Assembly: GCA_021790115.1 (NCBI GenBank)
Contig: JAJYIM010000004.1
Coordinates: 1-62,139, forward strand
Origin: Actinomycetes bacterium
Lineage (GTDB): Bacteria > Actinomycetota > Thermoleophilia > BMS3ABIN01
Direction of reading: 5' to 3'
DNA: 62,139 nucleotides
This document shows positions 15,509 through 50,063 of the stretch, in pieces. Numbering within the stretch: position 1 is the stretch's first letter; every line of letters starts with the position of its first letter. A program made the translations under genes and the position numbers. The notes below the pieces were generated by a model. It saw only the letters and a list, made by a program, of their open reading frames with translations, did no database searches and had not been told where the DNA came from.

Positions 15509-15592
15509 GCAAAAGAAAGAGCGGGTCCAATCACTGAAGTCCAGGACATAACCAAAGCAACGTCCGAAAACCGCGACCTGCGGCTGGAGGAG

Positions 15593-17766: not shown

Positions 17767-17772
17767 TCAATC

Positions 17773-19584: not shown

Positions 19585-19641
19585 AGCGGACGCTGGATGC
19601 TGGATCCTGGAAAAAAAGTAAAGATTGACAGACGGGTGACA

Positions 19642-22631: not shown

Positions 22632-22936
22632 CGTCGCTGCAACATTACCTGGTCCTGGCAGGCGCGCTTTTTTCGGTGGGCGCCTGGGGGGTGCTGGCGC
22701 GCCGCAACATCATCATGGTGGTGATGAGCCTGGAGCTGATGTTTAACGCCGTCAATATCGCCCTGGTGGCATTCTCCAATTACTCATCCGCCGGGGCGGG
22801 CCGGGGAGAGGTGTTCGTCTTTTTTGTGCTGGCCATTGCTGCCGCCGAGGTTGCGGTTGGCCTGGCAATCGGCATCGCCATGTACCGCCTGCGCGAAAAG
22901 CTTGACGTTGATGAATTAGATGAATTGAAAGGATGA
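22628..22936 (+). CDS. nuoK: NADH-quinone oxidoreductase subunit K
   Basis: RRNII...[21 protein letters not shown]. Confidence 0.97.
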
Positions 22937-23006
22937 TCGATGCGGGGTGCGCAAAACCAAAGCGGCGGCCCAGTGGGCCGCCTGCGGAACAAGGTGAATA
23001 ACTGAA

Positions 23007-26464: not shown

Positions 26465-27934
26465 TTGCAGCATGACGTCGTCGCTATAGTCCCGGAACTC
26501 ATGCTGATTGCCGCGGCGCTGGTATTGCTGCTGATAGACCCGTTCTTGCCGCCGGAAGGGCGGCGCGGCTTAAGCTGGCTGGGAATCATGGCCTGCCTGC
26601 CGGCGGCGGCGTCGGTATGGCTGGCGCGCTCGGAGCAGTTCTCCACTTTCTCGCACGGCATCGCCCTGGACAGGTTCGCCGTTTTCTTCAAGCTCCTGCT
26701 GCTGGCTGTGGCGGTGCTGGCGATGCTGCTTTCCGAAAAACACCTGGCCAAGAACGGGCGGCTGCTGGGCGACTACTACGCCCTGATTCTGCTGGCCACC
26801 GTCGGCATGATGGTGATGGCATCGGCGATAGACCTTGCCACCTTCTTTGTCGGCCTGGAGCTGATGGCGCTGTGCAGCTACCTGCTGGCCGGATTCTTCC
26901 GCTACCGCGAGCGCTCCATTGAAGCATCGCTGAAATATTTCCTCACCGGATCGTTTGCTTCCGCCATCCTGCTCTTTGGCATGGCGCTGCTTTATGGCAT
27001 CACCGGCAGCACCAATTACCAGGAAATCGGGGTGGCGATCAGCACCACGTCGTTGGACAGCCACGTGCTCGTGATCGCAATTGTCCTGCTTTTAGGAGGG
27101 TTTGCTTTCAAGGTGGCGGCGGCGCCGTTCCACGGCTGGGCGCCGGACGTTTACCAGGGAGCGCCGACCCCGGCGGCTGCATTCCTGTCTGTCGGCCCCA
27201 AAATCGCTGCCTTTGCCGCCATCATCAAGTTTTTTACGATCATGCTGGGCTCCGAGCAGGCTCGCTGGGTGCCGCTGATGATCGCGGTGGCCATTGCCAC
27301 CATGCTGATTGGGGCCACGATGGCGCTTCTGCAGCGCGACCTCAAGCGGATGCTGGCCTTCTCCAGCATCGCTCACGTTGGCTACCTGCTGCTGGCGCTG
27401 ATCGCCGCCGGCCAGAGCCACAGCAACCTGGGATCATCCGCCGTCCTCTTCTACCTGGCAGCCTACGCCGCGATGAACATGGGCGCCTTTGGCGTGCTGG
27501 TCTTCCTGGCAAATTCAGCCAGTTTTGGCGACAGCCTGGACGAGATGGCCGGCCTGGCGCGCCGTTTCCCCGGCGCTGCGGGCGTAATGGCCGTGCTGAT
27601 GTTCTCTCTGGCCGGGATCCCGCCTACCGCCGGTTTTCTGGCAAAATTCTACCTGTTTGCCAGCGTCGTTGACGCCGGCTACGCCTGGCTGGCCGTAATC
27701 GGGGTGCTGTTTAGCGTGGTCTCGGCGTTTTACTATCTGCGCGTGATCGTCTACATGTATATGCGCGAGCCATCGGCCGAGGCAGCGGCGGCGATGGAGC
27801 CGGCGGGCGGACGCTCGTGGGACTTAAGTCTGGGCCTGGGGTTGGCAACGGCGGCAGTGGTCATCCTGGGTGTGCTCCCAGGGCCGATTCTTAACGCGGC
27901 CCAGGACGCGGTGGCGAAGATACTGGGTTCGTAG
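26465..27934 (+). CDS. nuoN: NADH-quinone oxidoreductase subunit N
   Basis: GLELMAL, EASLKYF, FKVAAAPFHGWAPDVYQGAPTP, KRMLAFSSIAH, GIPPTAGF; TTG start directly after the nuoM stop. Confidence 0.96.
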   Translation: MQHDVVAIVPELMLIAAALVLLLIDPFLPPEGRRGLSWLGIMACLPAAASVWLARSEQFSTFSHGIALDRFAVFFKLLLLAVAVLAMLLSEKHLAKNGRLLGDYYALILLATVGMMVMASAIDLATFFVGLELMALCSYLLAGFFRYRERSIEASLKYFLTGSFASAILLFGMALLYGITGSTNYQEIGVAISTTSLDSHVLVIAIVLLLGGFAFKVAAAPFHGWAPDVYQGAPTPAAAFLSVGPKIAAFAAIIKFFTIMLGSEQARWVPLMIAVAIATMLIGATMALLQRDLKRMLAFSSIAHVGYLLLALIAAGQSHSNLGSSAVLFYLAAYAAMNMGAFGVLVFLANSASFGDSLDEMAGLARRFPGAAGVMAVLMFSLAGIPPTAGFLAKFYLFASVVDAGYAWLAVIGVLFSVVSAFYYLRVIVYMYMREPSAEAAAAMEPAGGRSWDLSLGLGLATAAVVILGVLPGPILNAAQDAVAKILGS

Positions 27935-30254: not shown

Positions 30255-30777
30255 CACTTAATTGCAAAAGTTAGAGCAATATAATAACCTGCCCCCAGGA
30301 AAGGCGCAATTTGGTTTTGTTAATCTTTACCTGGAGGTCAAGATGGCGAAAGCGACAGTAATTACTTTAGGGGAAGAAGAAAAGGCAATGCTTTTATCAT
30401 GGGCCCGCCGCGGCAAGACAGAGCGCCGCTTGGCAGAGCGGGCAAACGTTATTCTGGCGGCTGCGGCTGGCAAACCAACTAAAGAGATTGCCCATGATCT
30501 TGGCACACGGCCGGCACGGGTAAGCAAATGGCGGACCCGCTACGCCAGGGATGGGATTGAAGGGCTTAAAGATGCGCCCCGCCAGGGAGCTCCGGTCCGC
30601 TACGGACAACCAGCAGAGAAACGTATTTTAGCTCTGCTTGATCAGCCGCCCCCGTCAGGATTTTCAACCTGGAGCGGACCGCTGATTGCCAGAGAGCTTA
30701 AAGACGTAAGCAAACACCAGGTCTGGCGGGTCATGCGGCGCCACGGCTTAAGCCTTACGCGCCGGCGCAGTTGGTGT
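30254..30777 (+). mobile_element. IS630-family insertion sequence, left end and 5' transposase fragment
   Basis: MAKATVITLGEEEKAMLLSWARR...RANVIL...VSKWRTRYARDGIEGLKDAPRQG...WSGPLIAREL...VWR...RRRSWC is the IS630 HTH region; the element begins after the TA of the upstream stop codon (IS630 targets TA); no DDE domain. Confidence 0.8.
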
Positions 30778-31536
30778 GGCTTTTTAAAATGGGAGGAGCT
30801 GTCACAAACACAACGAGCTCGTATTCTTTCACAGTTGCAGGAATGCCCAGAAATAGGGAATTATCACATCATGGGTTTTCTGAGCGTTCTTTCGAAAGAA
30901 AATCCTGATGAGGTGGTAAAAGTCTTAGAACGCCGTGTGGAAATCGCCGAATCCAGAGAGTCAAATGATGGGTATAAACCGCTTCCATATAATTGGTATG
31001 AACAGAAATTAGGAGTTAGAGACAGTCGGGATTTCATTTTGATAGCAAGGGGCGTGCTCAAGTGGGTAGCAGGTAGGCCAGCTTCTTGGTATCGACGGCA
31101 AGCATTCCGATCGATCGTCGGTTATTACGATGAAAGCGTGATACAAGTTTTAAGTGAGTCGTTGCTTTCAGAATCGAGAGAACCTTTCGATGCAGTTGTG
31201 TCGGTACTGCGGGAAGCCCCGCGAACCTTCGCTTTGGAAAATGTTGAATTTGTACAGTACGCTCTTGATGCTGCACAACAATATGGGCCAGATCAATTAA
31301 AGAGCATGAGAGGTGCCCTATGGGAATCTGTCGCAACTGGGAGTAAAAGTGGTTCTGCTGGAGAGCCATTTATTGAAGATATTGAACAACGGGATAAATC
31401 AGCAGAAATCGCAAGGATGTTGCCTAACGGATCTACCGAACAGGAATTCTATTTGTCTCTCCACGAATCTGCTCAAGAATCTATTCGTTGGCATGCAGAA
31501 AGAGATGAGATAAGTGCCGATGGAAGAGGGTGGTAA
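30343..31536 (+). pseudogene. Chimeric ORF: IS630 transposase N-terminus fused in frame to the C-terminal fragment of an unrelated low-GC gene
   Basis: IS630 similarity ends at SWC (about 30777), where the composition shifts to AT-rich; the remaining ~250 aa have no transposase motifs. Confidence 0.7.
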
Positions 31537-33147: not shown

Positions 33148-34326
33148 TCATGCGTTGTTGTGGGGGGTGGCCTGGCTGCCTGCCGGCTGGCTGCGCCTAA
33201 CGGCGTTATGAAACGCCGCGGCAATGTCGCCGGTTCTCTCGAAGTCCCGGATCTGCTGTTGGGCGCCGTTGCCATGCTTGAGGATGCCGGCAGCGCGGCG
33301 GATATACTTTTCCAGCCCCAGGCTCACCTGGGCGGCGGCGCTGTAATCAATCAAACGCTTGGCCGCGTCCGTAGCCGCTACTTCCCTTTTTGTCTTAAAA
33401 TCGACAAGCTTCCCATCCAGGCCATAACGAAGAGCACGCCACAAGTTTTCCTCGATCTCATGGGTTCCCAACACCGGCAGCAGGCGGCCGGCGTCATAAT
33501 CGGCCGCCAGCGCCGCCGCCAGTGCGACCGTCAGCGACGCTAGCGCCAGCGTATCTTCGACATCGCTCTGGCAGTCGCAAATACGAATTTCCAGCGTGCC
33601 CAGGAGCGGGTGCGGCCTGATACTCCACCAGATTTGCGTTGGCTCAGAGATGGAGTTTGTTGACATCAGCGTTTCCACCAGGCCGGCGTAGTGGTTCCAG
33701 TCTTTAAAAGGGCCCGGGATGCCGCAGCGCGGGAAAAACTTGGTAAACAGTTGCGTCCTGGTGGAGTGCAGGTATGTGTACCTGCCTTCGGAAAAAGGGG
33801 AGTTGGCCGACAGGGCCAGCAGGTGGGGCAGGAAGCCGCGCATGGCGTTAAGGACGGCGATCAGCCGCTCGCGGCCGCGCACACTCACGTGAGTGTGCAT
33901 GCCGAAGGTCAGGTTCCGCCAGGCGCAATAGCGGAGCCGTTCGTCGATCACCCGGTAGTGAGGCGTATCAATAATGCGTTGGTCCCGCCAGTCGGCAAAC
34001 GGATGCGTGCCCGTGGCGGCCAGCGTCACGCCCAGTTGCGTCGCCGAGTTAAAAAGGTCTTGCCGCTTTGCCTTGAGGTCGGCTTCGGCAGACGCCATCG
34101 AATGGCAAATATCAGTACAAACCTCAATTTCAGAGGCGATCAGCTCACCCCTGGCGAAATTGCCGATACGCCGATGTGCGATTTCCTGCAGCTGCTCGAA
34201 ACGGCTGGTAAGCGCCAGGCTGTCAGGATCCAGTATCTGGAATTCTTCCTCGACGCCGACAGTGAAATCATTCGCGTCATCAAAGCGGGCGGCGGCCTGC
34301 TGGGTGCTGTAGCGTTTCCAGACCAA
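33148..34326 (-). CDS. YbdK-family carboxylate-amine (glutamate-cysteine) ligase
   Basis: FTVGVEEEFQILD, ELIASEIEV, GTHPF, FGMHTHV, LALSANSPF, WWSIRPHP..GTLEIRICD. Confidence 0.92.
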   Translation of the reverse strand: MVWKRYSTQQAAARFDDANDFTVGVEEEFQILDPDSLALTSRFEQLQEIAHRRIGNFARGELIASEIEVCTDICHSMASAEADLKAKRQDLFNSATQLGVTLAATGTHPFADWRDQRIIDTPHYRVIDERLRYCAWRNLTFGMHTHVSVRGRERLIAVLNAMRGFLPHLLALSANSPFSEGRYTYLHSTRTQLFTKFFPRCGIPGPFKDWNHYAGLVETLMSTNSISEPTQIWWSIRPHPLLGTLEIRICDCQSDVEDTLALASLTVALAAALAADYDAGRLLPVLGTHEIEENLWRALRYGLDGKLVDFKTKREVAATDAAKRLIDYSAAAQVSLGLEKYIRRAAGILKHGNGAQQQIRDFERTGDIAAAFHNAVRRSQPAGSQATPHNNA

Positions 34327-36906: not shown

Positions 36907-37470
36907 TTATTTTAATATTGTACTTATCTGCTGCTCGAACAAGCCCTGTGTCATGGGGCCGACATAGAAAGAGACAATGTTTCCCTTTTTGCCAATAAAG
37001 AAGGTTGTCGGAATGCCATTATAGGGAACTTTCCCGGCCTGCTGATAGCCATTGAGAACGCTGCCGTCATTATCGAGGCCAATCGTATATGTAAGCCCGT
37101 ATTTTTTGGCAAACGCCCGCTGGTCGTCCGGGTTATCCTGGACGGCCATTCCCAAAAAGGTGACCCGGTTTTTGTATTTATTGTACATTTGTGCCAGTAA
37201 GGGTGCTTCCTGATTACACGGGCCACACCAGGAGGCGCCAAAATTTATCAGGATTGGCTTACCGTCGCTTTTGACGTCAGACAGGGAAACCGTGGGGCCC
37301 ATGATAGTCTGGACGTTAAAATCGGGCGCCGCGTTGGCTGCGGTAGTGGCAGTGCTGGTTACAGTTGATCCGGAGCCGGAGCCTGGGCTGGAAGAGCTGC
37401 ATCCGGCCGCCAGCAAGGCGCCAAAAAAAATCACCACGGACAGTGAAATTAATCGTGTGCGGAGGGTCAT
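36907..37470 (-). CDS. TlpA/ResA-like thioredoxin-fold lipoprotein
   Basis: Lipobox LAAGC, Ser/Thr/Ala linker, INFGASWCGPC, GIPTTFFI. Confidence 0.9.
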   Translation of the reverse strand: MTLRTRLISLSVVIFFGALLAAGCSSSSPGSGSGSTVTSTATTAANAAPDFNVQTIMGPTVSLSDVKSDGKPILINFGASWCGPCNQEAPLLAQMYNKYKNRVTFLGMAVQDNPDDQRAFAKKYGLTYTIGLDNDGSVLNGYQQAGKVPYNGIPTTFFIGKKGNIVSFYVGPMTQGLFEQQISTILK

Positions 37471-37487
37471 AAATTCTTTCTTGTTTC

Positions 37488-37505
37488 GTCCGGCGCCTGC
37501 CGGAC
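37488..37505 (-). promoter_or_regulatory. Putative bacterial SECIS hairpin
   Basis: Minus-strand GTCCGGC-AGGC-GCCGGAC (7-bp stem, G-containing loop) starts 11 nt after the in-frame UGA at 37519-37517. Confidence 0.7.
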
Positions 37506-37507
37506 CT

Positions 37508-37729
37508 TCACATTCCTCAACTGCCGCCGAAGCCGACAGTCACATTCCCATCTTCAACAATCACGGGCACAAATGCCGTGCCCGACTTGGCAATTGCCTC
37601 TTCCTTGACGGCCGGATCGGAAGTTACGTCATATTCGGTAAATTTAACTCCCTTGCGGGTGAAGTCTTCCTTGGCCGCCGCACAATAGGGGCATCCCGGT
37701 TTGGTATAAATGACGACTTCATCTGGCAT
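37508..37729 (-). CDS. Glutaredoxin-like protein with probable C-terminal selenocysteine (UXX-star type)
   Basis: CPYC redox motif; reads ...GFGGS-TGA-GGA-ATG-TGA (U-G-M-stop); RBS aaggagg; SECIS-like hairpin downstream. Confidence 0.82.
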
Positions 37730-37802
37730 CCGCGAACCTCCTTGTCTTAAGCCATAATTCTAGCACAGAGCGGGGCGGCCGGTTTTATGTTCGCCAGTCT
37801 TC

Positions 37803-40945: not shown

Positions 40946-41800
40946 GTGCACATTGACGGCAAGACAAGGTTGATAGGGATCCTCGGCGATCCCGTTGCCC
41001 ACTCACTCTCTCCCCGGATGCAAAATGCCGCCTTTCAGGCCGCCGGCCTGAATTTTTGCTATGTGCCGCTTCGTGTCAAGCAAAAGCAACTCCCGGCAGC
41101 CGTGGAGGGCCTGAGGGCCATGCAGTTCAGAGGCGCCAACGTGACCATTCCTCACAAGGTGCCGGCGGCGGAACTGCTTGATTGCCTGGACCGGTCCGCC
41201 GCCAGGACCGGCGCCGTAAACACCATCGTGAACGATGCCGGCAAGCTCACCGGTTATAACACTGATGGCGCCGGCTTCATTGCCGCCCTGGCGGAGGCCG
41301 TCAGCGTGGAGTTCCCCAGTGCCACGGCCGTCATTTTAGGCGCCGGCGGCGCGGCCCGCTCCGTGGCAGTGGCGCTGGCGGAGAAAGGCGTGCCGCGGAT
41401 CGCCATCATTAACAGAACGCTGGCAAAAGCCCGGGGCCTAAAGGCGCTGCTTAAGCTCGAGTTCCCCGATATCGAAGCAGTCGCCGTAGGCCTTAAGGAA
41501 AAATGTGATGACTTGATTATTTCCAGCAAGTTGCTGGTAAATGCCACCTCCCTGGGCATGGACGGCGACCTAAAGCGCCTCCCCGTCGCCGTCGATAAAT
41601 TAACGGAAGGCCATATCGTCTGCGATCTGGTTTACGGCGGTCCGGGAGATACCGCGTTGCTGGCAGCGGCGAGAGAAAAAGGGGCAACCTTAATGGGCGG
41701 ACTCGGAATGCTTCTCCACCAGGGAGCGGCTTCATTCAAGCTGTGGACCAGTGCTCAGCCCCCTATTGAAGTCATGAGGAAAGCGCTTGAATCCCAGTGA
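40946..41800 (+). CDS. aroE: Shikimate dehydrogenase
   Basis: GDPVAHSLSP, GANVTIPHK, GAVNT, GYNTDG, GAGGAARS, NRT, VNATSLGM; RBS aaggagg before GTG 40946. Confidence 0.95.
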   Translation: MHIDGKTRLIGILGDPVAHSLSPRMQNAAFQAAGLNFCYVPLRVKQKQLPAAVEGLRAMQFRGANVTIPHKVPAAELLDCLDRSAARTGAVNTIVNDAGKLTGYNTDGAGFIAALAEAVSVEFPSATAVILGAGGAARSVAVALAEKGVPRIAIINRTLAKARGLKALLKLEFPDIEAVAVGLKEKCDDLIISSKLLVNATSLGMDGDLKRLPVAVDKLTEGHIVCDLVYGGPGDTALLAAAREKGATLMGGLGMLLHQGAASFKLWTSAQPPIEVMRKALESQ

Positions 41801-43508
41801 ATTAAAAGCAAAAACTCAAGGAAATCACAGGCAGCTCCAGCCGATCGGTGAAATTCTCGTAAGCAAGGGAATGATCACGCGCGAGCAGCTCGATGAATGC
41901 CTTGAGAAACAAAAAGGCAGCTCCAAGCGGCTGGGCGAGATCATGGTTCAGGAAGGCATATTGTCCCAGGACCAGCTGAACCAGGCCCTGGCGGAGCGCC
42001 TTGGCGTTGAGCACATCGGACTGGCCGAATACCAGGTTGACTCGCTGGCGGCCAACATGATCCCGGAGAAGCTGGCACGTCGCTACGGCGCCATCCCCAT
42101 CAAATTTTTGGATGAGAACACGCTGCAGGTGACGATGGTGGACCCGACCAACGTGTTTGCCATCGACGACCTGCGCATGATCACCGGCTATGATATCAAG
42201 CCCGCCATCGCTTCAGCGGAGGATGTGTTTGGGCTGATCTCAAAGATGCACCGCCTGGGCGACACGGTGGATGAGGAGCTGGCGCAGGAGGAAGGAGATT
42301 ATCTGGCCGAAGCCCCGGTTTCGGCCGACATCCGCGATGCGGCGGCAGAGGCGCCGGTTGTGAAACTTGTCAACGGGGTTATCAGCCAGGGCGTTGACGA
42401 CGGGGCCAGCGATCTCCATTTCGAGCCTCAGGAGAAAGAGCTTGTCATCCGCTTTCGCATTGACGGGGTTCTGCATGAATTCATGTCGGTGCCCAAGCGA
42501 ATGCAGGCCGGGGTGCTTTCCCGCATCAAGGTGATGGCTGATATGGATATTGCCGAGCGGCGGATTCCCCAGGACGGGCGCATCGGGCTCACGGTTGGCG
42601 GCAAACCGATAGATGTACGCGTTGCCTCCATGCCCACCGTTTACGGAGAAAAGATTGTCCTGCGGCTGCTGGATAAAAGCAGCGTGCTGCTGGGTCTGAC
42701 GGACCTTGGTTTTTCGGAAAAGGCCCTGACCCGCTTTGAAATGGCTTACCACAAGCCCTACGGCGCCCTGCTGGTGACGGGACCTACCGGCAGTGGCAAG
42801 TCCACCACCCTTTACGCAACCTTGAACGTGCTTAACTCGAAGGAAAAGAACATCATCACTGTCGAGGACCCGGTGGAGTACCGCCTGGGCGGCATTAACC
42901 AGACACAAATCAACCCCAAGGCCGGGCTCACGTTTGCCTCCGGCCTGCGCTCAATCCTGCGGTCGGACCCCGATATTGTCATGGTTGGCGAGATCAGGGA
43001 CAAGGAAACGGCCCAAATCGCCATCGAGTCAGCCCTCACCGGCCACCTGGTGCTTAGCACCCTGCATACAAACGACGCCCCCGGAGCCCTGACCCGGCTT
43101 TCGGAGATGGGAGTTGAGCCCTTCCTGACGGCGTCGGCAATCGAATGCGTGCTGGCCCAAAGGCTGGCGCGGCGCCTTTGCCACAACTGCCGCAAGCCTT
43201 TCCAGCCTTCCGACGAAGCGCTTAAGCAAAACGGTTTTCCAGACGAGGTGATGGGACAGGGCATCACCATCTACCGGGCCACCGGTTGCCCCCGCTGCAA
43301 CAATACCGGCTACAAGGGGCGGCTGGGCATTTACGAAGTGATGCTGGTAAGCGAGGCGATCGAGCGGTTAACCATTGAGAGAAAAAGTGCCGATGAAATT
43401 TCAAGAGTGGCGCAGGCCGAAGGCATGGTCACCTTGCGGGAAGACGGAATTCAGAAAGTGCTTGAGGGCCGTACTTCAGTCGAGGAGATTGGCAGGGTCA
43501 TCGTATGA
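41787..43508 (+). CDS. pilB: Type IV pilus extension ATPase (GspE/PilB family)
   Basis: N-terminal IGEILVSKG...LGEIMV (MshEN-like), ASDLHFEP, RFRIDG, GPTGSGKST, TVEDPVE, LRSDPD, GHLVLSTLHTN, CxxC...CxxC. Confidence 0.96.
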   Translation: MNPSELKAKTQGNHRQLQPIGEILVSKGMITREQLDECLEKQKGSSKRLGEIMVQEGILSQDQLNQALAERLGVEHIGLAEYQVDSLAANMIPEKLARRYGAIPIKFLDENTLQVTMVDPTNVFAIDDLRMITGYDIKPAIASAEDVFGLISKMHRLGDTVDEELAQEEGDYLAEAPVSADIRDAAAEAPVVKLVNGVISQGVDDGASDLHFEPQEKELVIRFRIDGVLHEFMSVPKRMQAGVLSRIKVMADMDIAERRIPQDGRIGLTVGGKPIDVRVASMPTVYGEKIVLRLLDKSSVLLGLTDLGFSEKALTRFEMAYHKPYGALLVTGPTGSGKSTTLYATLNVLNSKEKNIITVEDPVEYRLGGINQTQINPKAGLTFASGLRSILRSDPDIVMVGEIRDKETAQIAIESALTGHLVLSTLHTNDAPGALTRLSEMGVEPFLTASAIECVLAQRLARRLCHNCRKPFQPSDEALKQNGFPDEVMGQGITIYRATGCPRCNNTGYKGRLGIYEVMLVSEAIERLTIERKSADEISRVAQAEGMVTLREDGIQKVLEGRTSVEEIGRVIV

Positions 43509-43535
43509 TGACATTTCAACCAAGGGGGAAAGCAG

Positions 43536-44603
43536 ATGGATCTGGTCGATATTTTAATGGAAGTCCTGGAGCGCAAAGCATCAGACCTGCATCTCACGGT
43601 AGGGACGCCTCCCGTGATCAGGGTGGCGGGCAAGCTGATCCGGCTGGACTATCCGCGCCTGTCAGACAGCGACACCCGTGATCTGATCTACAGCATTCTC
43701 ACCCAGGACCAGCGCCACAGGATGGAAAGCGACTGGGAGATTGATTTTGCCTATTCCGTGCCCGGGAAAGCGCGGTTCCGTGTCAACGCTTTCTTTCAGC
43801 GCAACAGCATGGGCGCTGCCTTCCGTCTGGTTCCGGTGCAAATCAAAAGCGTGGAGGAGCTGATGCTGCCGGCGGTGCTGCACGAGATGGCCGCCAAGCC
43901 GCGCGGCTTTGTGCTGGTCACCGGGCCAACCGGCTGCGGCAAGTCAACGACGCTGGCGGCTCTGATAGACGAGATAAACGAGACGCGCGAAGAGCACATC
44001 ATGACCATTGAGGACCCGATTGAGTTCCTCCACCGGCATAAGAAATCCATCATAAACCAGCGGGAAGTGGGAACCGACACCCAGTCGTTTAACCGGGCGC
44101 TGAAATCGGTGCTGAGGCAGGACCCGGACGTCATCCTCGTCGGCGAGATGCGCGATAACGAGACGATCCAGACAGCGTTGACGGCGGCTGAGACCGGGCA
44201 CCTCGTCTTTGCAACCCTGCACACGCAGGATGCGCCCCAGTCAATTGACCGGATTATTGACGTCTTTCCGTCTCATCAGCAGGGGCAGATCCGGGTGCAG
44301 CTGGCGGCAACGCTGATGGGAATCTGCACGCAGCAGTTGCTGGCGACCGTTGATGGCACCAGCCGGGTGCCGGCCTGTGAAGTTCTGGTTCCCACGCCGG
44401 CGGTGCGCAACCTCGTCCGCGAAGCCAAGACGCACCAGATATATTCCGTCATGCAGACAGGCGGCCGGTACGGCATGCAGACGATGGACAGCTCCCTGGC
44501 CGACCTGGTCAGGCGCGGCAAGATCACCAAGGTGCTGGCGCTCAAGCGCTCGAGCACTCCCGACGACCTGGAGAGGTTGATAACGGGCAGGCTTGCAGCC
44601 TGA
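43536..44603 (+). CDS. pilT: Type IV pilus retraction ATPase
   Basis: ASDLHL, GPTGCGKSTT, TIEDPIEF, NQREVG, VLRQDPDVILVGEMRD, AVRNLVRE (AIRNLIRE motif), GMQTMD. Confidence 0.96.
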   Translation: MDLVDILMEVLERKASDLHLTVGTPPVIRVAGKLIRLDYPRLSDSDTRDLIYSILTQDQRHRMESDWEIDFAYSVPGKARFRVNAFFQRNSMGAAFRLVPVQIKSVEELMLPAVLHEMAAKPRGFVLVTGPTGCGKSTTLAALIDEINETREEHIMTIEDPIEFLHRHKKSIINQREVGTDTQSFNRALKSVLRQDPDVILVGEMRDNETIQTALTAAETGHLVFATLHTQDAPQSIDRIIDVFPSHQQGQIRVQLAATLMGICTQQLLATVDGTSRVPACEVLVPTPAVRNLVREAKTHQIYSVMQTGGRYGMQTMDSSLADLVRRGKITKVLALKRSSTPDDLERLITGRLAA

Positions 44604-44641
44604 GCGGCTGGTTTTAACAGCAAGGCAAGGAAAGAGCAACA

Positions 44642-45862
44642 ATGTCAACTTTTGTTTATAAAGTGCGGGACGTGCGGGGCATTCTCTCCCGGGGGGAGCT
44701 GGAGGCAGACTCCCGCGCCGCCGTTGCCACCAGCCTGAGTGGCCAGGGCCTCACAGTTGTTGAGGTGAGTGAGAAGCAGAAGGGCGGCACTTCGCTGAGC
44801 GACGTTCTTAGCGATCTGCGCCCGGTCAAAGCCCGGCACATCACTATTTTCTCGCGGCAGTTCGCCACCATGATCAGTTCCGGGCTGGCGCTCTTGCGGG
44901 CGCTGCACATCCTGGAAAGCCAGACCCAGAATCCAAAGCTAAAGACAATCATCGGCAGTGTCAGAAAAGAGGTGGAAGGCGGGGCGGCCCTGTCGGATTC
45001 CCTGGAAAAACACCCGCAGGTCTTTAACCGGCTTTACATCAGCATGGTGCGGGCGGGCGAGGCCGGCGGCATCCTGGATGAGACCTTGAACCGGGTGGCG
45101 GCGCAACTGGAGTCCGATGACAACCTGAAAAGGTCTATCAAGTCGGCGATGGTCTACCCGCTCTTGATCGCCTCTTTCGCCCTCCTTATCTTGACGGCGA
45201 TGGTTCTCTTCATTATCCCTACCTTTGCCAAAATGTACGATCAGTTGGGAGGGAAGCTGCCGCTGCTTACCCGGATGATGGTCTGGGTCAGCAACACGAT
45301 GACAAGCATCGTTGGTTTGTTTGTTCTGGCCGGCCTCGGTGGCGGGGTCTACGGGCTGATCAGGCTGAAAAAGACGCCGCAGGGAACGGCCGCCTGGGAC
45401 CGCATGAAGCTGCATCTGCCCATGGGCATTGGCGAGATCGTCCGCAAGCTGGCGATGGCCAGGTTCTCGCGGACGCTGGGCACGCTGATCTCAAGCGGCG
45501 TCCCCATCCTGCAGGCAATTGAGATTACCGGCGAGACGGCCGGCAACGTGGTGGTGTCGGAGGCGATGGCCGGCGTCAAGGAGGGCATCAAGCAGGGCCG
45601 GCCGATGTCAGAACCGTTGTCAAGCCAAAGCATTTTCCCGCCCATGGTGACGCAGATGATCGCCGTCGGCGAGGAGACCGGCGCCATTGACACCATGCTG
45701 GGCAAGATTGCCGATTTTTATGAAGATGAAGTCAGCGCCGCTGTCAAGGCGCTGACGTCAATCCTGGAGCCGATCATGATGATCGGCGTGGGCGCCATCG
45801 TCGGCGTCATTGTCATCTCGCTTTATCTGCCGATATTTAACCTGATGAACATCGTCCACTAA
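44642..45862 (+). CDS. pilC: Type IV pilus platform protein (GspF/PilC family)
   Basis: FSRQFATMISSG, GEAGGILD, SAMVYP, GEETG.ID.ML, LEPIMM. Confidence 0.96.
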   Translation: MSTFVYKVRDVRGILSRGELEADSRAAVATSLSGQGLTVVEVSEKQKGGTSLSDVLSDLRPVKARHITIFSRQFATMISSGLALLRALHILESQTQNPKLKTIIGSVRKEVEGGAALSDSLEKHPQVFNRLYISMVRAGEAGGILDETLNRVAAQLESDDNLKRSIKSAMVYPLLIASFALLILTAMVLFIIPTFAKMYDQLGGKLPLLTRMMVWVSNTMTSIVGLFVLAGLGGGVYGLIRLKKTPQGTAAWDRMKLHLPMGIGEIVRKLAMARFSRTLGTLISSGVPILQAIEITGETAGNVVVSEAMAGVKEGIKQGRPMSEPLSSQSIFPPMVTQMIAVGEETGAIDTMLGKIADFYEDEVSAAVKALTSILEPIMMIGVGAIVGVIVISLYLPIFNLMNIVH

Positions 45863-45897
45863 TAGCCTGAGCTGCCGTTAAGCGCAATTAATAAGCC

Positions 45898-46725
45898 ATG
45901 GGCGCAGCCTTAAAAGTAAAAGAAAGCAGCAGGGCGCCGCGGCGCGGCGCCAAGGTGATTGCATTCCCGCTGCCGGCAAAGGAAAACCGCTGCAATACGG
46001 AGCTGGTCAGGCAGTACCAGCAAAGCCGGGACCCGGGGCTGTTGGGGCAGATCGTTGAGCGCAACCAGGGACTGCTGCATGCGGTGCTGGGCCGCTTTTC
46101 CTATTTCCCGGATCCGTACGAGGATTTGCTCCAGGTGGCGAATTTGGGCCTGATCAAGGCGGTACAGCGCTTTGACTGCAGCCGCGGCGTCGAATTTTCC
46201 AGCTACGCCACCGCCATCGTCGATGGCGAAGTGCGCCATTACCTGCGCGATAACGTGCTGCTGCGGCAGCCGCGCTGGCTGCAAAAGCTGGAAAAACAGA
46301 TTGAGGCCGCCTCCGCGGAGTTGACCAGAAAGCTGAAGCGGACGCCGACGCTGAAAGAAATCTCCCGCGAGGTCAATGTAACCGAAGATGGCGTCATCGA
46401 AGTGCTGAAAACAAGCGCCGCGGCGCGGCTGCATCCAGTTGACGACCTGCCGGAAGGCCCAGGCGGGCATGAGCCTGAAGCCGGCCGGATTCACTCGCTC
46501 CACTATGAATCTTTTTCCCTGCCGGTGGAGGACCGCATCCTGCTGGAGGAGGCCCTGGAGGCGCTGGGAGCATTCCACCACAAGATTATCTTCCTGCTTT
46601 TTTACCGCGGCCTGACGCAGTCGGAGGCCGCCGCCGCGATGGGGCTGTCACAGCGCCAGGTTTCGCGCGAATCGGCCAAGGCCCTCGGCCGCCTGAAGGC
46701 GATCCTGAACACGAAGATTTTTTAG
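45898..46725 (+). CDS. SigB/SigF/SigG-type RNA polymerase sigma factor
   Basis: YEDLLQVANLGLIKAVQRFD...FSSYATAIVDGEVRHYLRD, region 3 RTPTLKEI, region 4 LTQSEAA..MGLSQRQVSR. Confidence 0.88.
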   Translation: MGAALKVKESSRAPRRGAKVIAFPLPAKENRCNTELVRQYQQSRDPGLLGQIVERNQGLLHAVLGRFSYFPDPYEDLLQVANLGLIKAVQRFDCSRGVEFSSYATAIVDGEVRHYLRDNVLLRQPRWLQKLEKQIEAASAELTRKLKRTPTLKEISREVNVTEDGVIEVLKTSAAARLHPVDDLPEGPGGHEPEAGRIHSLHYESFSLPVEDRILLEEALEALGAFHHKIIFLLFYRGLTQSEAAAAMGLSQRQVSRESAKALGRLKAILNTKIF

Positions 46726-46849: not shown

Positions 46850-46940
46850 AAGGTGAAAAATGGCAAACCATCCGTAAGGGTGGGGCGCAAAGCTACAGGG
46901 CCAGGAAAAAGTTCTTCTGGCCGGCTGGGTTGCCACCAGA
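46850..46940 (+). ncRNA. c-di-GMP-I (GEMM) riboswitch aptamer
   Basis: GGCAAACCATCC-GTAA-GGGTGGGGCGCAAAGCTACAGGGCC...GGCCGGCTGGGTTGCC: GCAAAC, GNRA tetraloop P2, GCAAAGC junction and 3' GGTTGCC of the class I aptamer; in the leader of the major pilin. Confidence 0.9.
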
Positions 46941-46956: not shown

Positions 46957-46994
46957 AGGATCTGTGGGTTTGCCAAAGCCACAGGTCCTTTTTT
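46957..46994 (+). terminator. Intrinsic terminator (riboswitch expression platform)
   Basis: AGGATCTGTGG / CCACAGGTCCT 11-bp stem (one G-U) followed by a T run. Confidence 0.85.
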
Positions 46995-47037
46995 GTGGCT
47001 TTTTAAAGAAATGGGAATTTCGGAAGGAGGTGACATC

Positions 47038-47472
47038 ATGTCAACAAGGATCAGGAAAAGAATGCAGGCGGGTAGCGGCGGTGAAGGCGGTTTTACGCTG
47101 ATTGAGCTGCTGGTGGTGATCATCATCATCGGCATCCTGGCGGCCATCGCGATACCGGTGTACTTAAGCCAGCGCAACAAGGGCTATGATTCAACAACGC
47201 AGAGCGATCTGCGCAATCTCGGGGTAGCGCAACAGTCATGGCTAGCTGAGCCTAGCAATGTTAACCCGGCGCAGACGTACTCCAGCACCCTTGCTAATTT
47301 GCAAAACATCGAGGGGTTTGTCTTGTCGCCCGGTGTTAATATCAATCTCACGAATGCTTCGAATGCCAACTACTGCGCGACCGCAACTAATTCCAATCAC
47401 CCGGGCACAGCCGGCACTTACTACATGACAGCCACTGTCTCGCCTACTCCAAACAAACCAACAGGTTGTTAA
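47038..47472 (+). CDS. pilA: Major type IV pilin
   Basis: GG|FTLIELLVVIIIIGILAAIAIP prepilin motif, two C-terminal Cys; RBS aaggaggtga. Confidence 0.93.
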   Translation: MSTRIRKRMQAGSGGEGGFTLIELLVVIIIIGILAAIAIPVYLSQRNKGYDSTTQSDLRNLGVAQQSWLAEPSNVNPAQTYSSTLANLQNIEGFVLSPGVNINLTNASNANYCATATNSNHPGTAGTYYMTATVSPTPNKPTGC

Positions 47473-47684: not shown

Positions 47685-48251
47685 ATGGCAAGGCAGGCCG
47701 GCGGATGCCAGGAATTACTGTTGTTAAAAAAACGACATATCAGCAAGGCCGGTGGGGATAAACCGCGAGCGGTTTTCCCGGCTGCGGCCAGAAAAGCCGC
47801 GCCGGCGGCGCTCTTTGGCGGCCGGGACGGCTTCACGATGATCGAACTGCTGGTGGTGATGGTGCTGATCGGCATCATCATGGCCATGTCGGTCACCGGA
47901 TTTTCTTATTACCAGGCGGGCAGAGCATTGAATACGGCGGAAAGAGAGCTGACCACCGAGATAAGGGATGCGCAGTCCATGGCGGTTGCTACCGGAAACA
48001 AGTACCGGCTTGATTTCAGCGACCCTTCCCGGACGCTTTACAAGCTGCAGTACTGGAACGGCAGCGGCTGGACTGATGCCAGCAACCACCATCTGCCGGG
48101 CGGCGTTGAGTTTGACTCTGCCTCGATTGGCGCGATTGACTTTTACGCCCGCGGAAACTCGGATAGCGGCAGCGTGGTGCTGGACGGCCAGCTTGGCAAG
48201 ACCAAGACGGTGCAGGTTGATGGAGAGACGGCAAACGTGAGGACAACTTAA
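47685..48251 (+). CDS. FimT/GspH-like minor pilin
   Basis: G|FTMIELLVVMVLIG, EIRDAQSMA; start uncertain. Confidence 0.85.
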   Translation: MARQAGGCQELLLLKKRHISKAGGDKPRAVFPAAARKAAPAALFGGRDGFTMIELLVVMVLIGIIMAMSVTGFSYYQAGRALNTAERELTTEIRDAQSMAVATGNKYRLDFSDPSRTLYKLQYWNGSGWTDASNHHLPGGVEFDSASIGAIDFYARGNSDSGSVVLDGQLGKTKTVQVDGETANVRTT

Positions 48252-48260: not shown

Positions 48261-50063
48261 GTGCGGGCAGCCCAGACATTGTCAACTATTATGCAAACGG
48301 CGGCGGCCAAAGTCCGGCCGCGCCGCCTTGGCGGCGAGGACGGGGTTACGCTGGTCGAAGTAATAGTCGCCATGGCGATTTTCCTGGTCATCGCCACGGC
48401 GGTGGCCGGGGCGATGACCATGGGGCTTGGAACCACGGCAAAGGCACGGGCGGCCACGGTTGGCAAGGCGGCGGCCCAGGCCCAGTTCGAGGAGATGAAA
48501 TCGCGCGTCTTTTACGTGCCCCACAGCAACTCAACCGACGCCATTGACATGCTGGCCAAATATTATCCAGATGTAAACACCAGCCGAACGACTGATCCCC
48601 AGGGTTGGACAGGCTGGTACACCAGCGGCAACGGCGATGCCTACTATACCAAGAAGGTTTCACTGGCCGACAGCAACGGCATCACCCTGACCGTGGCCAC
48701 CCGTTTTGTTGACAACTCCGGCAACATCATCACGCCATCGGCAACCTATGACTCCGCCAAGTCGGGGCAGGATTATCCTCCCAGCATGCTTGTCAAGGTC
48801 CAGATTACCGCTTCCTGGGGTTACGGAGGGCAGAACAAGAGCTACGTTCTTAATTCCGAGATCTCCGCCACCAGCGAGACCAGTTGTCCGCAGTCGTCCA
48901 ACAGCCACGCCGATGTCACGGGCGCCATTTTCTCGGTATCTACCGGAACCGCCAATCCTTATACTGATTTTGTTGGCGGCAGCTTCGGCGACGCCCACGC
49001 GTCCACCGGCTACGGCTGCACCGTCAGCGCCCAGGCACGTGCCACCGGTGGCCAGATGACGGTATTTGGCGGCTCCACTACCAAAGGCGCGACGGTTGCG
49101 GTCAGCGGTCCACCCCCACCCGACAGCCAGCAGTCGGCGGGGCCAATCAACCTTTCCCTAAGCATATGGCCCGCGCTGTACCTGACCACGGGCTCCGCCA
49201 ACGCCAGTCAGAGCAGCGGCGGCCAAAACCAGGTTACGGCGCAGGGAAATACTACAGTGCTGCTGCAGGCACTCGGCCTGCAGCAGCTGGCCACCCCTTC
49301 GGATGACGGCGTCAGCGGCTACCGGCGCTGGGCTTTTATCAACCCCGCCGTGACCGTCATCGGCAGCAACCTGCTGGGCGGCAATGATGATGACGAATGT
49401 GATGACGACGACGGGGGCGACGATGAGGGCGGCTGTACCCAGAACCAGATGGTGTTCGCCAACCTGCGCGAGCGGGACGGCACCACTGACGCAAACGCAC
49501 ATGTCGCTTACCAGCAGGTTGACATTCTGCCGCTTGTGGCCCTCACCGCCAATACGCCTTCGGCAGCGGAGGGGCTGGTATTTGTGAGGAGCTTTAAGGC
49601 TGACGCCGACAGCACGGTCAACGGCAGCCCGGGCGGGATCAGCAATAAATTGTCATATTCAGCCGAGATCGGGATTTTTAACCCCAAATCGCCGCCATAT
49701 TGCGTCCTCGATGGGTGTTACGACCTTTATGGAGATTGTCCTACTTGTATAGGCCCGGCTATCAATTCTTCGAATCCGATCCAGACCGCCATTAATTTGG
49801 CCCAGCAGAAATACGGCCTGCAGCGGGCGCTGTTTACAGAATGGCAGAGCTTCACGGCCACGGACATCACAAACGCAATGGCGGCATCGCCCGACGGTAC
49901 CACCGCCTCAATTAGCGCGGACGCTCTGATGAAGATGACCGCGAAGTTCGGCACGGAAGTGAGGATGAACCCGACAGACGGCTCTGTTGTCCTGGTAAAC
50001 CCGCTGGGGCTGCAGCAGGTGTGGCTGGGAGCGATAAATGTTTCAGTTTTGCAAAAACCATAA
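48261..50063 (+). CDS. Large PilV-like minor pilin with extended C-terminal domain
   Basis: G|VTLVEVIVAMAIF prepilin motif; ~500-aa Ser/Thr/Gly-rich beta-type extension. Confidence 0.82.
   Translation: MRAAQTLSTIMQTAAAKVRPRRLGGEDGVTLVEVIVAMAIFLVIATAVAGAMTMGLGTTAKARAATVGKAAAQAQFEEMKSRVFYVPHSNSTDAIDMLAKYYPDVNTSRTTDPQGWTGWYTSGNGDAYYTKKVSLADSNGITLTVATRFVDNSGNIITPSATYDSAKSGQDYPPSMLVKVQITASWGYGGQNKSYVLNSEISATSETSCPQSSNSHADVTGAIFSVSTGTANPYTDFVGGSFGDAHASTGYGCTVSAQARATGGQMTVFGGSTTKGATVAVSGPPPPDSQQSAGPINLSLSIWPALYLTTGSANASQSSGGQNQVTAQGNTTVLLQALGLQQLATPSDDGVSGYRRWAFINPAVTVIGSNLLGGNDDDECDDDDGGDDEGGCTQNQMVFANLRERDGTTDANAHVAYQQVDILPLVALTANTPSAAEGLVFVRSFKADADSTVNGSPGGISNKLSYSAEIGIFNPKSPPYCVLDGCYDLYGDCPTCIGPAINSSNPIQTAINLAQQKYGLQRALFTEWQSFTATDITNAMAASPDGTTASISADALMKMTAKFGTEVRMNPTDGSVVLVNPLGLQQVWLGAINVSVLQKP

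What the first reader, a model, noticed from the sequence alone, without database searches (positions are those of the whole stretch)
37488..37729. Hidden selenoprotein: glutaredoxin-like protein ending Sec-Gly-Met with a SECIS-like hairpin
Seen: the ORF caller stops at TGA 37519-37517, but the frame continues GGA ATG TGA, giving ...GFGGS-U-G-M-stop, and a 7-bp stem with an AGGC loop starts exactly 11 nt after the UGA. Established: bacterial SECIS elements lie just 3' of the Sec codon (about 11 nt in E. coli fdhF), and UXX-star glutaredoxin-like (seleno)proteins carry Sec or Cys third from the end. Inference: a two-centre redox protein (CPYC plus terminal Sec) that standard annotation would truncate; it implies Sec machinery in this genome.
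Basis: partly seen in the sequence, partly recalled or inferred. Interest (0 to 1): 0.7.

Follow-up and report, generated by a model that had tools for sequence, protein, structure and literature searches.

The report
Glutaredoxin-like selenoprotein with C-terminal selenocysteine
This small glutaredoxin-like gene almost certainly reads its apparent TGA stop as selenocysteine and ends three residues later, but it belongs to the already curated 'Uxx-star' selenoprotein family, so it is a correct rediscovery and not a new kind of thing.

Summary
The minus-strand ORF 37729-37520 (70 aa, CPYC glutaredoxin fold) is followed by TGA (37519-37517), GGA ATG, and a second TGA (37510-37508). A 7-bp GC hairpin with loop AGGC (37505-37488) starts 11 nt after the first TGA.

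With Sec written as Cys, the protein scores 105.9 bits against NCBIfam NF041212 'Uxx-star family glutaredoxin-like (seleno)protein' (cut-off 66). In 30 homologous loci from at least seven phyla the first stop is always TGA. It is followed by Gly (all four synonymous codons), a hydrophobic residue, a real stop that uses all three stop codons, and a hairpin whose stem covaries. The hairpin meets all four published bacterial SECIS criteria. Rare Cys forms with the same 'C-X-X-stop' ending exist. In one Anaerolineae relative selB lies directly upstream.

Sec machinery in the source genome could not be tested: there is none in the 62 kb window and no access to the rest of the genome.

The family is described in the literature, and NCBI already names close Thermoleophilia homologues this way, although their deposited sequences are still cut at 70 aa. 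Interest is low to moderate. Two side observations are a conserved pairing with a ResA/TlpA-like lipoprotein redoxin and, in Ignavibacteria and Zixibacteria, a position between nuoM and nuoN.

The parts
37737..37743 (-). Shine-Dalgarno AAGGAGG, 7 nt upstream of the ATG
   Evidence: Read directly from the sequence
37520..37729 (-). Codons 1-70 of the glutaredoxin-like protein (MPDEVVIYTKPGCPYC...VTVGFGGS). This is the part a standard ORF caller reports.
   Evidence: ORF list; Pfam PF00462 E = 1.7e-17; NF041212 99.8 bits even when truncated
37682..37693 (-). CPYC dithiol active-site motif (Cys13-Pro-Tyr-Cys16)
   Evidence: Sequence; conserved as KPGCPYCAAAKED in close homologues
37517..37519 (-). 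In-frame UGA read as selenocysteine (residue 71)
   Evidence: TGA in 30/30 homologous loci while the true terminator varies; aligned Cys in P0198 and P0233
37511..37516 (-). Gly72-Met73 codons (GGA ATG), the 'XX' of U-X-X-stop
   Evidence: In 30 loci, Gly in 27 with all four synonymous codons and a hydrophobic or aromatic residue in 30. This is protein-level selection downstream of the TGA.
37508..37510 (-). True stop codon (UGA)
   Evidence: This position is TGA 13, TAG 9, TAA 8 across homologues
37488..37505 (-). Bacterial SECIS-type hairpin: 7-bp stem GUCCGGC/GCCGGAC with loop AGGC. The stem starts 11 nt after the UGA and the loop starts 18 nt after it. It lies wholly after the true stop, in the 37-nt intergenic gap.
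   Evidence: Fold -16.1 kcal/mol, z = -3.0; covariation with 83% of cells paired against 29-47% when slid, and 6/7 pairs with double changes; meets all four bSECIS criteria; not terminator-like because there is no T tail
36907..37470 (-). Co-oriented downstream gene: ResA/TlpA-like thiol-disulfide oxidoreductase lipoprotein (lipobox LAAGC, active site WCGPC), probably co-transcribed
   Evidence: NF002854 ResA E = 1e-25 and TlpA, DsbE, StoA hits, all below the curated cut-offs; the pair is conserved in 10 of 11 actinobacterial relatives, and the contig ends before the gene in the eleventh, L003; the same pair is on an independent contig, L081

Best explanation
The gene encodes a 73-residue cytoplasmic glutaredoxin-fold selenoprotein of the Uxx-star family: MPDEVVIYTKPGCPYC...VTVGFGGS-U-G-M.

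How it is made: when the ribosome reaches UGA 37519-37517, the hairpin 11 nt downstream acts as a bacterial SECIS. It recruits SelB-GTP-Sec-tRNA(Sec), Sec is inserted, two more codons (Gly, Met) are read, and translation ends at the next UGA. Because only two codons follow the Sec codon, the SECIS is entirely untranslated. If decoding fails, for example when selenium is scarce, the product is a nearly intact 70-aa CPYC redoxin without the tail.

How it probably works (inferred): the flexible Gly-rich tail (GGS-U-GM) carries a highly nucleophilic selenol that exchanges with the CPYC disulfide/dithiol. This would make a second, mobile redox centre that hands electrons to a partner or substrate. 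In this actinobacterial lineage the gene forms a conserved two-gene unit with a ResA/TlpA-like lipoprotein redoxin, which suggests a role in a thiol-disulfide pathway.

Shown: family membership, the recoding signature and SECIS conservation. Inferred: actual Sec insertion in this organism, Sec-CPYC exchange, and any functional link to the redoxin.
For: Family: NF041212 105.9 bits against a cut-off of 66, and NF041114 73.8 against 72 with U written as C; Pfam Glutaredoxin.

Recoding signature: 120/120 database homologues end at GF.G.. 30/30 loci from Actinomycetota, Chloroflexota, Ignavibacteria, Zixibacteria, Planctomycetes, Oligoflexia and a delta-proteobacterium read TGA, Gly, hydrophobic residue, stop. 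Gly is encoded by GGA 12, GGC 10, GGT 3 and GGG 2 times, and the real stop is TGA 13, TAG 9 and TAA 8 times.

SECIS: a hairpin is present in all loci with its loop 16-23 nt after the UGA and a loop pattern (N)G[G/U]. Covariation score is 0.457 against 0.07-0.17 when slid, with 0/500 shuffles reaching it. The criteria quoted from PMC13188914 are all met: loop 3-9 nt, stem 4-16 bp, G in the first two loop positions, spacing 16-37 nt, MFE at most -7.5 kcal/mol. The E. coli upper stem-loop also sits 11 nt from the UGA (PMC8659212).

Cys/Sec pairs: P0198 ends ...GFPGT-CGV and P0233 ends ...GRG-CAF.

Link to Sec machinery: selB (TIGR00475, 336 bits against a cut-off of 242) lies immediately upstream of the Uxx-star gene in L028.

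Mobile-centre idea: relatives that lack the second active-site Cys (CPYT in L031, CGYT in P0198, CPHS in P0233, U-PHT in L044) keep the terminal U/C.

Precedent for an untranslated bacterial SECIS when Sec is near the C-terminus: PMC10945757 and its reference to Su et al. 2005.
Against: No selA, selB, selD or tRNA-Sec is present in the 62 kb window, and the rest of the genome could not be examined, so Sec decoding in this organism is not demonstrated. No other selenoprotein gene was recognisable in the window. No Rfam family matches the hairpin, although no match was expected (my assumption: bacterial SECIS elements are too variable to be captured by a curated covariance model). No usable structural model of the tail was obtained: mean pLDDT was 54 and the tail was below 50, so proximity of Sec to CPYC is inferred, not shown. 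A few relatives carry Thr at the U position (P0261 ...GGS-TQV, P0187 ...GY-TAV), so the tail chalcogen is not universally required.
Confidence: 0.87

Rival explanations
1. The TGA at 37519-37517 is the real stop. The protein is a 70-aa CPYC glutaredoxin, and the hairpin is an intergenic structural element (terminator, attenuator, mRNA stabiliser or translational coupler) between the redoxin genes.
For: Standard ORF calling gives 70 aa. The truncated form still scores above the NF041212 cut-off at 99.8 bits. The hairpin sits 17 nt upstream of the next gene's ATG. In one relative, L031, a T-run follows the hairpin.
Against: The first stop is TGA in 30/30 loci although these lineages use all three stop codons at the next stop. 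The Gly codon after the 'stop' shows synonymous variation and the next residue stays hydrophobic, which cannot be explained if that stretch is untranslated. Cys-form homologues read through the same position. There is no T tail, and the hairpin is not called terminator-like. Loop sequence and spacing are constrained as in a SECIS.
Confidence: 0.04
2. The gene is a decaying relic. The lineage inherited a Uxx-star gene but this genome has lost the Sec machinery, so only the truncated 70-aa redoxin is made.
For: No Sec machinery or tRNA-Sec in the window. No other selenoprotein gene is evident in 62 kb. The truncated product would be a nearly complete Grx domain.
Against: TGA, the Gly-Met codons, the stop and an intact 7-bp SECIS are all preserved here and in eleven syntenic actinobacterial species at 66-91% protein identity, which argues for continuing selection. 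Sixty-two kb is only a small fraction of a genome, so absence from the window says little.
Confidence: 0.07
3. The protein is a genuine selenoprotein, but the terminal Sec serves mainly as a soft-metal or metalloid ligand (Hg, As, Cu, Se trafficking) and not as a redox relay to CPYC.
For: [quoted passage not shown] The source sample is a mine-drainage metagenome. A P-type ATPase-like ORF lies just upstream of the homologue in L032.
Against: No metal-resistance genes flank the gene in the window or in its syntenic relatives; the neighbours are tpiA, gpmI, aroE, hpt, lysA, ybdK and a thiol-disulfide oxidoreductase. The most consistent neighbours are redox proteins (ResA/TlpA-like) or respiratory complex I genes. 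The apparent L032 fusion to the ATPase was rejected.
Confidence: 0.2

Closest known systems
NCBIfam NF041212 'Uxx-star family glutaredoxin-like (seleno)protein' (Haft & Tolstoy 2025, as cited in PMC13188914)
   Same: Glutaredoxin fold of about 70 aa; Sec or Cys third from the C-terminus followed by two residues and a stop; HMM score well above the cut-off; close Thermoleophilia homologues already carry this name in NCBI.
   Different: Nothing essential. This copy is the CPYC (dithiol) variant with a single Sec.
[quoted passage not shown]
   Same: Same fold and the same U-X-X-stop ending; borderline HMM score of 73.8 against a cut-off of 72 when U is written as C.
   Different: The review lists family 1 with a UxxT active site and two Sec residues, as seen in L044: G-U-PHT ... 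GGS-U-GV. The window protein has CPYC and one Sec, and without the tail it scores 66.6, below the cut-off.
Mammalian thioredoxin reductase C-terminal Gly-Cys-Sec-Gly-stop redox centre
   Same: Sec in a flexible Gly-rich C-terminal tail a few residues from the end; SECIS outside the coding region; truncation at UGA gives a near-full-length protein. The tail is thought to shuttle electrons from a buried dithiol to substrates (general knowledge; PMC9595596 abstract on truncated TrxR1).
   Different: TrxR is a eukaryotic flavoenzyme of about 55 kDa with a eukaryotic SECIS and an adjacent Cys-Sec pair. Here there is a bacterial SECIS, an 8-kDa Grx fold and no Cys adjacent to Sec. This is an analogy only, not homology.
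Clostridial selenoprotein glutaredoxin (UxxC active site; Kim et al. 2011, cited in PMC13188914)
   Same: Glutaredoxin-fold bacterial selenoprotein.
   Different: Sec replaces the N-terminal active-site Cys there. Here the active site is all-Cys and Sec is at the C-terminus.
E. coli fdhF SECIS and engineered 3'-UTR SECIS constructs (Su, Li & Gladyshev 2005, cited in PMC10945757)
   Same: Stem-loop starting 11 nt after the UGA with G-[G/U] in the apical loop (PMC8659212; PMC13188914). It works untranslated when Sec is close to the C-terminus.
   Different: Different stem sequence. From my own recollection of the fdhF element, it has a bulged U that this perfect 7-bp stem lacks. This is a natural arrangement and not an engineered one.
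NrdH / YruB-type glutaredoxin-like proteins
   Same: Short Grx fold with CxxC, a cis-Pro (VPV) and a G-F motif after the last strand. Sequence hits include PDB NrdH entries 4fiw and 1r7h and Grx 7c10, which aligns through ...VVVGF.
   Different: Scores are below the cut-offs for TIGR02196 (65 against 88.6) and TIGR02194 (41.5 against 85.8). Those proteins continue into a C-terminal helix and have no terminal Sec or Cys.

Membership tests
Uxx-star family glutaredoxin-like (seleno)protein (NF041212) | Whole-protein HMM score at or above the curated cut-off (66 bits) | tested here: met
   105.9 bits with U written as C; 99.8 bits for the truncated 70-aa form
Uxx-star family glutaredoxin-like (seleno)protein (NF041212) | Glutaredoxin/thioredoxin-fold domain with an N-terminal CxxC-type active site | tested here: met
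   PF00462 E = 1.7e-17 over residues 5-62; CPYC at residues 13-16
Uxx-star family glutaredoxin-like (seleno)protein (NF041212) | Sec (TGA) or Cys exactly third from the C-terminal end, then two residues and a stop | tested here: met
   TGA GGA ATG TGA; the same geometry in 30/30 loci; Cys forms C-G-V-stop and C-A-F-stop
Bacterial selenoprotein gene (general) | bSECIS downstream of the UGA: loop 3-9 nt, stem 4-16 bp, G in the first two loop positions, 16-37 nt from the UGA to the loop, MFE at most -7.5 kcal/mol | tested here: met
   Loop AGGC (4 nt, G at position 2 followed by G), 7-bp stem, 18 nt spacing, -16.1 kcal/mol; criteria from PMC13188914
Bacterial selenoprotein gene (general) | Cys-containing homologues aligning with the TGA, and TGA-containing homologues in other organisms | tested here: met
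   P0198 and P0233 are Cys forms; there are 30 TGA-containing homologues in at least seven phyla
Bacterial selenoprotein gene (general) | Sec-decoding machinery (selA, selB, selD, tRNA-Sec) in the same genome | not testable with these tools
   None in the window. The contig ends at the window's left edge and the right-edge gene is not on record. selB is adjacent to a homologue in another phylum only (L028).
Bacterial selenoprotein gene (general) | Physical incorporation of selenium at the UGA position | not testable with these tools
   Needs 75Se labelling or mass spectrometry
[quoted passage not shown] | HMM score at or above 72 bits, and UxxT active site with two Sec residues (as listed in PMC13188914) | tested here: not met
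   73.8 bits only with the tail and U written as C, and 66.6 bits without it. The active site is CPYC, not UxxT. Compare L044, which has U-PHT.
UXX-star (seleno)protein families 2 and 3 (NF041211, NF047338) | HMM score at or above the cut-off (100 and 97 bits) | tested here: not met
   65.1 and 53.9 bits
Intrinsic (Rho-independent) terminator | GC-rich hairpin immediately followed by a U tract | tested here: not met
   The hairpin is followed by GAAACAAGAAAGAAUUU, and the terminator scan does not report it
NrdH / YruB glutaredoxin-like proteins (TIGR02194, TIGR02196) | HMM score at or above the cut-off | tested here: not met
   41.5 against 85.75, and 65.2 against 88.55

The most novel reading that the evidence does not exclude
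Uxx-star proteins may be dedicated, selenium-dependent redox partners of membrane respiratory or envelope machinery and not general glutaredoxins. In at least eleven Ignavibacteria and Zixibacteria species the gene is inserted between nuoM and nuoN of the complex I operon. Throughout this actinobacterial clade it is paired with a ResA/TlpA-like lipoprotein redoxin. The most novel reading is an accessory selenoprotein that maintains or assembles thiol-sensitive sites of complex I or of an extracytoplasmic thiol-reducing pathway, with output tuned by selenium supply because UGA failure gives a tail-less isoform. I could not check whether the primary paper (Haft & Tolstoy 2025, not held) already reports these neighbourhoods.
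Probability: 0.12. Interest if true: 0.55.

Novelty: already known. Interest (0 to 1): 0.27.

Why it matters
For annotation, the gene should be recorded as a 73-residue selenoprotein with a translation exception at the UGA. Every one of the 120 closest database entries is stored truncated, including those NCBI already names as Uxx-star (seleno)proteins. The gene also marks this mine-drainage actinobacterium (Thermoleophilia-like) as a probable selenocysteine user, which predicts selA, selB, selD and tRNA-Sec elsewhere in its genome. Biologically, the family is a natural example of a bacterial SECIS that lies entirely after the stop codon, and of a selenoprotein whose failed decoding yields an almost complete protein. 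No family function is reported as tested in the one review I could read, so the conserved redoxin partner and the nuo-operon position in other phyla are usable leads. None of this is conceptually new.

Tried and rejected
Rfam at gathering threshold over the window and at E up to 10 over 37400-37600: no SECIS-type match, only noise hits to snoRNA and SL1.

tRNA-Sec search: ARAGORN found no tRNA in the window or in 31 related loci.

NCBIfam annotation of 30 window ORFs, including every ORF of SelA, SelB or SelD size: none is a sel gene.

Read-through screen of all in-frame TGAs in the window for other selenoproteins: only noise and ordinary gene junctions.

Extending the window: the ENA contig starts 14 nt before the window, and the last gene is not on record.

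The natural Cys form P0198, folded without an alignment, gave mean pLDDT 54 with the tail below 50, so I drew no structural conclusion and ran no fold search.

The apparent fusion of the L032 homologue to a P-type ATPase was rejected, because only 21 in-frame residues lie upstream.

The nuo operon in the window (14301-27934) is 9.8 kb from the gene and is not nearby in the actinobacterial relatives, so I did not extend the nuo association to this clade.

The primary paper Haft & Tolstoy 2025 and Liu et al. 1998 are not held.

Full report
**1. The observation**

On the minus strand the region reads as follows: AAGGAGG (37743-37737), seven bases, then ATG at 37729. Next come 70 sense codons encoding MPDEVVIYTKPGCPYCAAAKEDFTRKGVKFTEYDVTSDPAVKEEAIAKSGTAFVPVIVEDGNVTVGFGGS. 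These are followed by TGA (37519-37517), GGA ATG (37516-37511) and TGA (37510-37508).

Eleven bases after the first TGA a perfect 7-bp stem begins: GUCCGGC (37505-37499), loop AGGC (37498-37495), GCCGGAC (37494-37488). The mechanical ORF list stops at 37517 and reports 70 aa.

The hairpin is stable: -16.1 kcal/mol, z = -3.0, and none of 200 dinucleotide shuffles folds as well. In this window only 19 of 1960 TGA trinucleotides (about 1%) are followed by a perfect stem of at least 7 bp in SECIS-like geometry. None of the 15 ordinary genes that end in TGA has one. TGA is a normal terminator here: genes of at least 150 aa end in TAA, TGA and TAG 15 times each. A reassigned code is therefore excluded.

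**2. What it is**

The protein is a glutaredoxin-fold domain (PF00462, E = 1.7e-17). Against NCBIfam it scores 105.9 bits on NF041212, 'Uxx-star family glutaredoxin-like (seleno)protein' (cut-off 66), when Sec is written as Cys, and 99.8 bits when truncated. It is borderline on NF041114, 'UXX-star selenoprotein family 1' (73.8 against 72). It falls below the cut-offs for families 2 and 3, YruB, NrdH and Grx3.

A search of 5.8 billion proteins returned 206 homologues. The 120 listed all end at GF.G[S/G/T/H], mostly at exactly 70 aa. NCBI names several Thermoleophilia homologues 'Uxx-star family glutaredoxin-like (seleno)protein', yet they are stored as 70-aa products.

**3. Comparative test of recoding**

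I fetched DNA for 80 related loci and read past the called stop in each. Thirty loci carry this family. They come from Actinomycetota/Thermoleophilia, Chloroflexota/Anaerolineae, Ignavibacteria, Zixibacteria, Planctomycetales, Oligoflexia and a delta-proteobacterium. In these 30 loci:

- The first stop is TGA in 30 of 30.
- The next codon is Gly in 27 (GGA 12, GGC 10, GGT 3, GGG 2).
- The next codon after that is always hydrophobic or aromatic (Ile, Phe, Met, Val, Tyr).
- The following codon is a stop that uses all three forms (TGA 13, TAG 9, TAA 8).

Synonymous variation in a codon that lies after a 'stop', together with an invariant TGA next to a freely varying true terminator, is the signature of a translated UGA. 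If the first stop drew from the same usage as the second (about 43% TGA), 30 of 30 would have a probability near 1e-11. That figure ignores shared ancestry.

**4. The hairpin as a SECIS**

Every locus has a hairpin whose apical loop begins 16-23 nt after the UGA. The stems differ in sequence, for example GUCCGGC/GCCGGAC, CGACGGC/GCCGUCA, UUCCGUG/CACGGAA and GGCGCGC/GCGCGCC. The loops fit (N)G[G/U]..: AGGC, GGGC, GGUC, GUC, AGUU, GUU, GGU, CGUGA.

On an alignment of 27 sequences, RNAalifold recovers the helix, with 5 of 6 pairs showing compensatory changes. For the 7-bp helix, 83.4% of cells pair, against 29-47% when the 3' arm is slid by 1-3 columns. The covariation score is 0.457 against 0.07-0.17, six of seven pairs have double changes, and 0 of 500 shuffles reach the observed score.

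The published bacterial SECIS model, as quoted in PMC13188914, sets four criteria:

- a 3-9 nt loop and a 4-16 bp upper stem;
- G in one of the first two loop positions, usually followed by G or U;
- 16-37 nt between the UGA and the loop;
- MFE at most -7.5 kcal/mol.

The window element meets all four: a 4-nt loop A-G-G-C, 7 bp, 18 nt and -16.1 kcal/mol.

The element has no T tail and is not reported by the terminator scan. No Rfam family matches it. I expected no match, on my own assumption that bacterial SECIS elements are too variable to be captured by a curated model.

**5. Cys/Sec pairs and the link to Sec machinery**

An exhaustive HMMER scan of 1.84 billion representatives found rare full-length Cys forms. 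P0198 ends ...VTVGFPGT-C-G-V and P0233 ends ...VGWMGRG-C-A-F. Both have Cys third from the end, exactly where the window gene has TGA. A few relatives have Thr there (P0261, P0187).

In the Anaerolineae locus L028 the gene immediately upstream of the Uxx-star gene is selB (TIGR00475, 336 bits against a cut-off of 242).

In the window itself I found no sel gene among 30 annotated ORFs and no tRNA. tblastn with SelD and SelA probes gave no hit in the window or in any held locus. The contig ends at the window's left edge and the right-hand gene is not indexed. The prediction 'this genome has Sec machinery' therefore remains untested. The source is a mine-drainage metagenome.

**6. Context**

The gene is followed after 37 nt, which is essentially the SECIS, by a co-oriented gene for a lipoprotein thiol-disulfide oxidoreductase. 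That protein has lipobox LAAGC and active site WCGPC, and its best hits are ResA, StoA, DsbE and TlpA, all below the equivalog cut-offs.

The block aroE-gpmI-tpiA | Uxx-star-redoxin | hpt | lysA-ybdK is syntenic in eleven actinobacterial species. The redoxin is present in ten of them, down to 42% identity, and in the eleventh (L003) the contig ends first. The pair recurs on an independent short contig.

Outside this clade the neighbours differ. In about eleven Ignavibacteria, Zixibacteria and uncultured loci the gene lies between nuoM and nuoN. This was confirmed by HMM for both neighbours in L015, L021 and L025, and for nuoN alone in L034, where the contig starts at the Uxx-star gene. The window's own nuo operon (14301-27934) is 9.8 kb away, and none is near the gene in the actinobacterial relatives, so I do not extend that association to this gene.

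**7. How it most likely works**

Shown: the gene is a member of the Uxx-star family, with all sequence-level hallmarks of Sec recoding.

Inferred: SelB-GTP-Sec-tRNA(Sec) binds the hairpin as the ribosome reaches the UGA. Sec71 is inserted, Gly72 and Met73 are added, and termination follows. Because only two codons remain, the SECIS is untranslated. This is known to work in E. coli when Sec is near the C-terminus (PMC10945757, citing Su et al. 2005). Failed decoding would release a 70-aa CPYC redoxin lacking only the tail.

For function, I favour a mobile second redox centre. In this reading the selenol on the Gly-rich tail exchanges with the CPYC pair, by analogy with the GCUG tail of mammalian thioredoxin reductase. 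Two points support this. Relatives that have lost the resolving Cys (CPYT, CGYT, CPHS, U-PHT) retain the terminal U/C. The conserved neighbours are redox proteins.

The main functional rival is a role as a metal or metalloid ligand, which the 2026 review mentions for this family. I could not obtain a confident model of the tail, so proximity of Sec71 to Cys13 is not shown.

**8. Comparison with what is known, and novelty**

The family is curated in NCBIfam and appears in the literature. UXX-star families 1 and 2 and the HUGP/GUXX-star fusion are listed in PMC13188914, which cites Zhang & Gladyshev 2008 and Haft & Tolstoy 2025. The window gene is an ordinary member of the umbrella family, as a CPYC, single-Sec variant. 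It is not a typical family 1 member, which has UxxT and two Sec residues, as in L044.

What remains useful is the annotation fix (a 73-aa selenoprotein), the implied Sec trait of this organism, and the neighbourhood leads.

**9. Verdict**

- Observation: confirmed.
- Interpretation: supported, with the machinery and the mechanism untested.
- Novelty: already known.
- Interest: 0.27.
- Confidence that this is a genuine Sec-decoded Uxx-star gene: 0.87.

Noticed in passing
L013, L015, L017, L020, L021, L022, L023, L025, L026, L027, L034 (about 10.0-10.25 kb in the full-length loci): In Ignavibacteria, Zixibacteria and one uncultured bacterium the Uxx-star selenoprotein gene sits inside the complex I operon, between nuoM and nuoN. 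The intergenic gaps are tiny, and the SECIS fills the gap before nuoN. HMMs confirmed both flanking genes in L015, L021 and L025, and nuoN alone in L034.
   Followed up: partly
L028:2494-4440 (+), just upstream of the Uxx-star homologue at about 4831: A selB gene (TIGR00475, 336 bits against a cut-off of 242) lies immediately upstream of the Uxx-star gene in an Anaerolineae MAG. This is the only physical link to Sec machinery seen in any locus.
   Followed up: yes
L044:10001-10216 (+), Nitrospirota MAG: A double-selenoprotein relative: MAGQVRIFGKAG-U-PHT...VTLGYEGGS-U-GV-stop, with one TGA in place of the first active-site Cys and a second at the U-X-X-stop position. It matches the 'UXX-star family 1' description (UxxT, two Sec).
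   Followed up: partly
window 36907-37470 (-): A ResA/TlpA-like lipoprotein thiol-disulfide oxidoreductase (lipobox LAAGC, WCGPC) forms a conserved two-gene unit with the selenoprotein gene in ten of eleven syntenic actinobacterial species. No CcdA/DsbD-type membrane electron carrier was seen nearby.
   Followed up: partly
window 46852-46937 (+): A c-di-GMP-I riboswitch aptamer (RF01051, 61.6 bits against a gathering score of 35) lies upstream of a small ORF (46993-47472), directly after a run of ORFs at 41787-46725 that I took for type IV pilus genes from their sizes alone and did not scan. ORFs with pseudopilin or prepilin-type N-terminal hits lie just downstream (47685-48251, 50038-50679).
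   Followed up: no
window 17773-22134 (+): The nuo operon is unusual. One ORF combines a NuoI-like ferredoxin N-terminus with NuoF (603 aa). The next (845 aa) combines a NuoG/HoxU-like 2Fe-2S N-terminus, a GltD-like NAD(P)-binding flavoprotein core and a NuoI-like C-terminus.
   Followed up: no
window 170-849, 2738-4716 and 30262-31536: Mobile or defence-like content. There is a PhdYeFM/PIN toxin-antitoxin pair (170-849) and a type I restriction-modification / MAD2-like methyltransferase (1145-2311). A low-GC3 island (GC3 0.41-0.51 against about 0.75 elsewhere) holds an MqsA-like/SocA_Panacea gene (3108-4166). A low-GC3 IS630-like transposase ORF lies at 30262-31536.
   Followed up: no
window 33148-34326 (-): A YbdK-family carboxylate-amine ligase / glutamate-cysteine ligase-like gene lies 3 kb from the selenoprotein gene and is part of the same conserved syntenic block (lysA-ybdK). 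It may be relevant to low-molecular-weight thiol metabolism, but the adjacency could be coincidental.
   Followed up: no
P0261, P0187 (protein database hits): Some family members carry Thr where others have Sec or Cys (…GFGGS-TQV-stop, …GFQGY-TAV-stop), so the tail is kept without a chalcogen in a few lineages.
   Followed up: no
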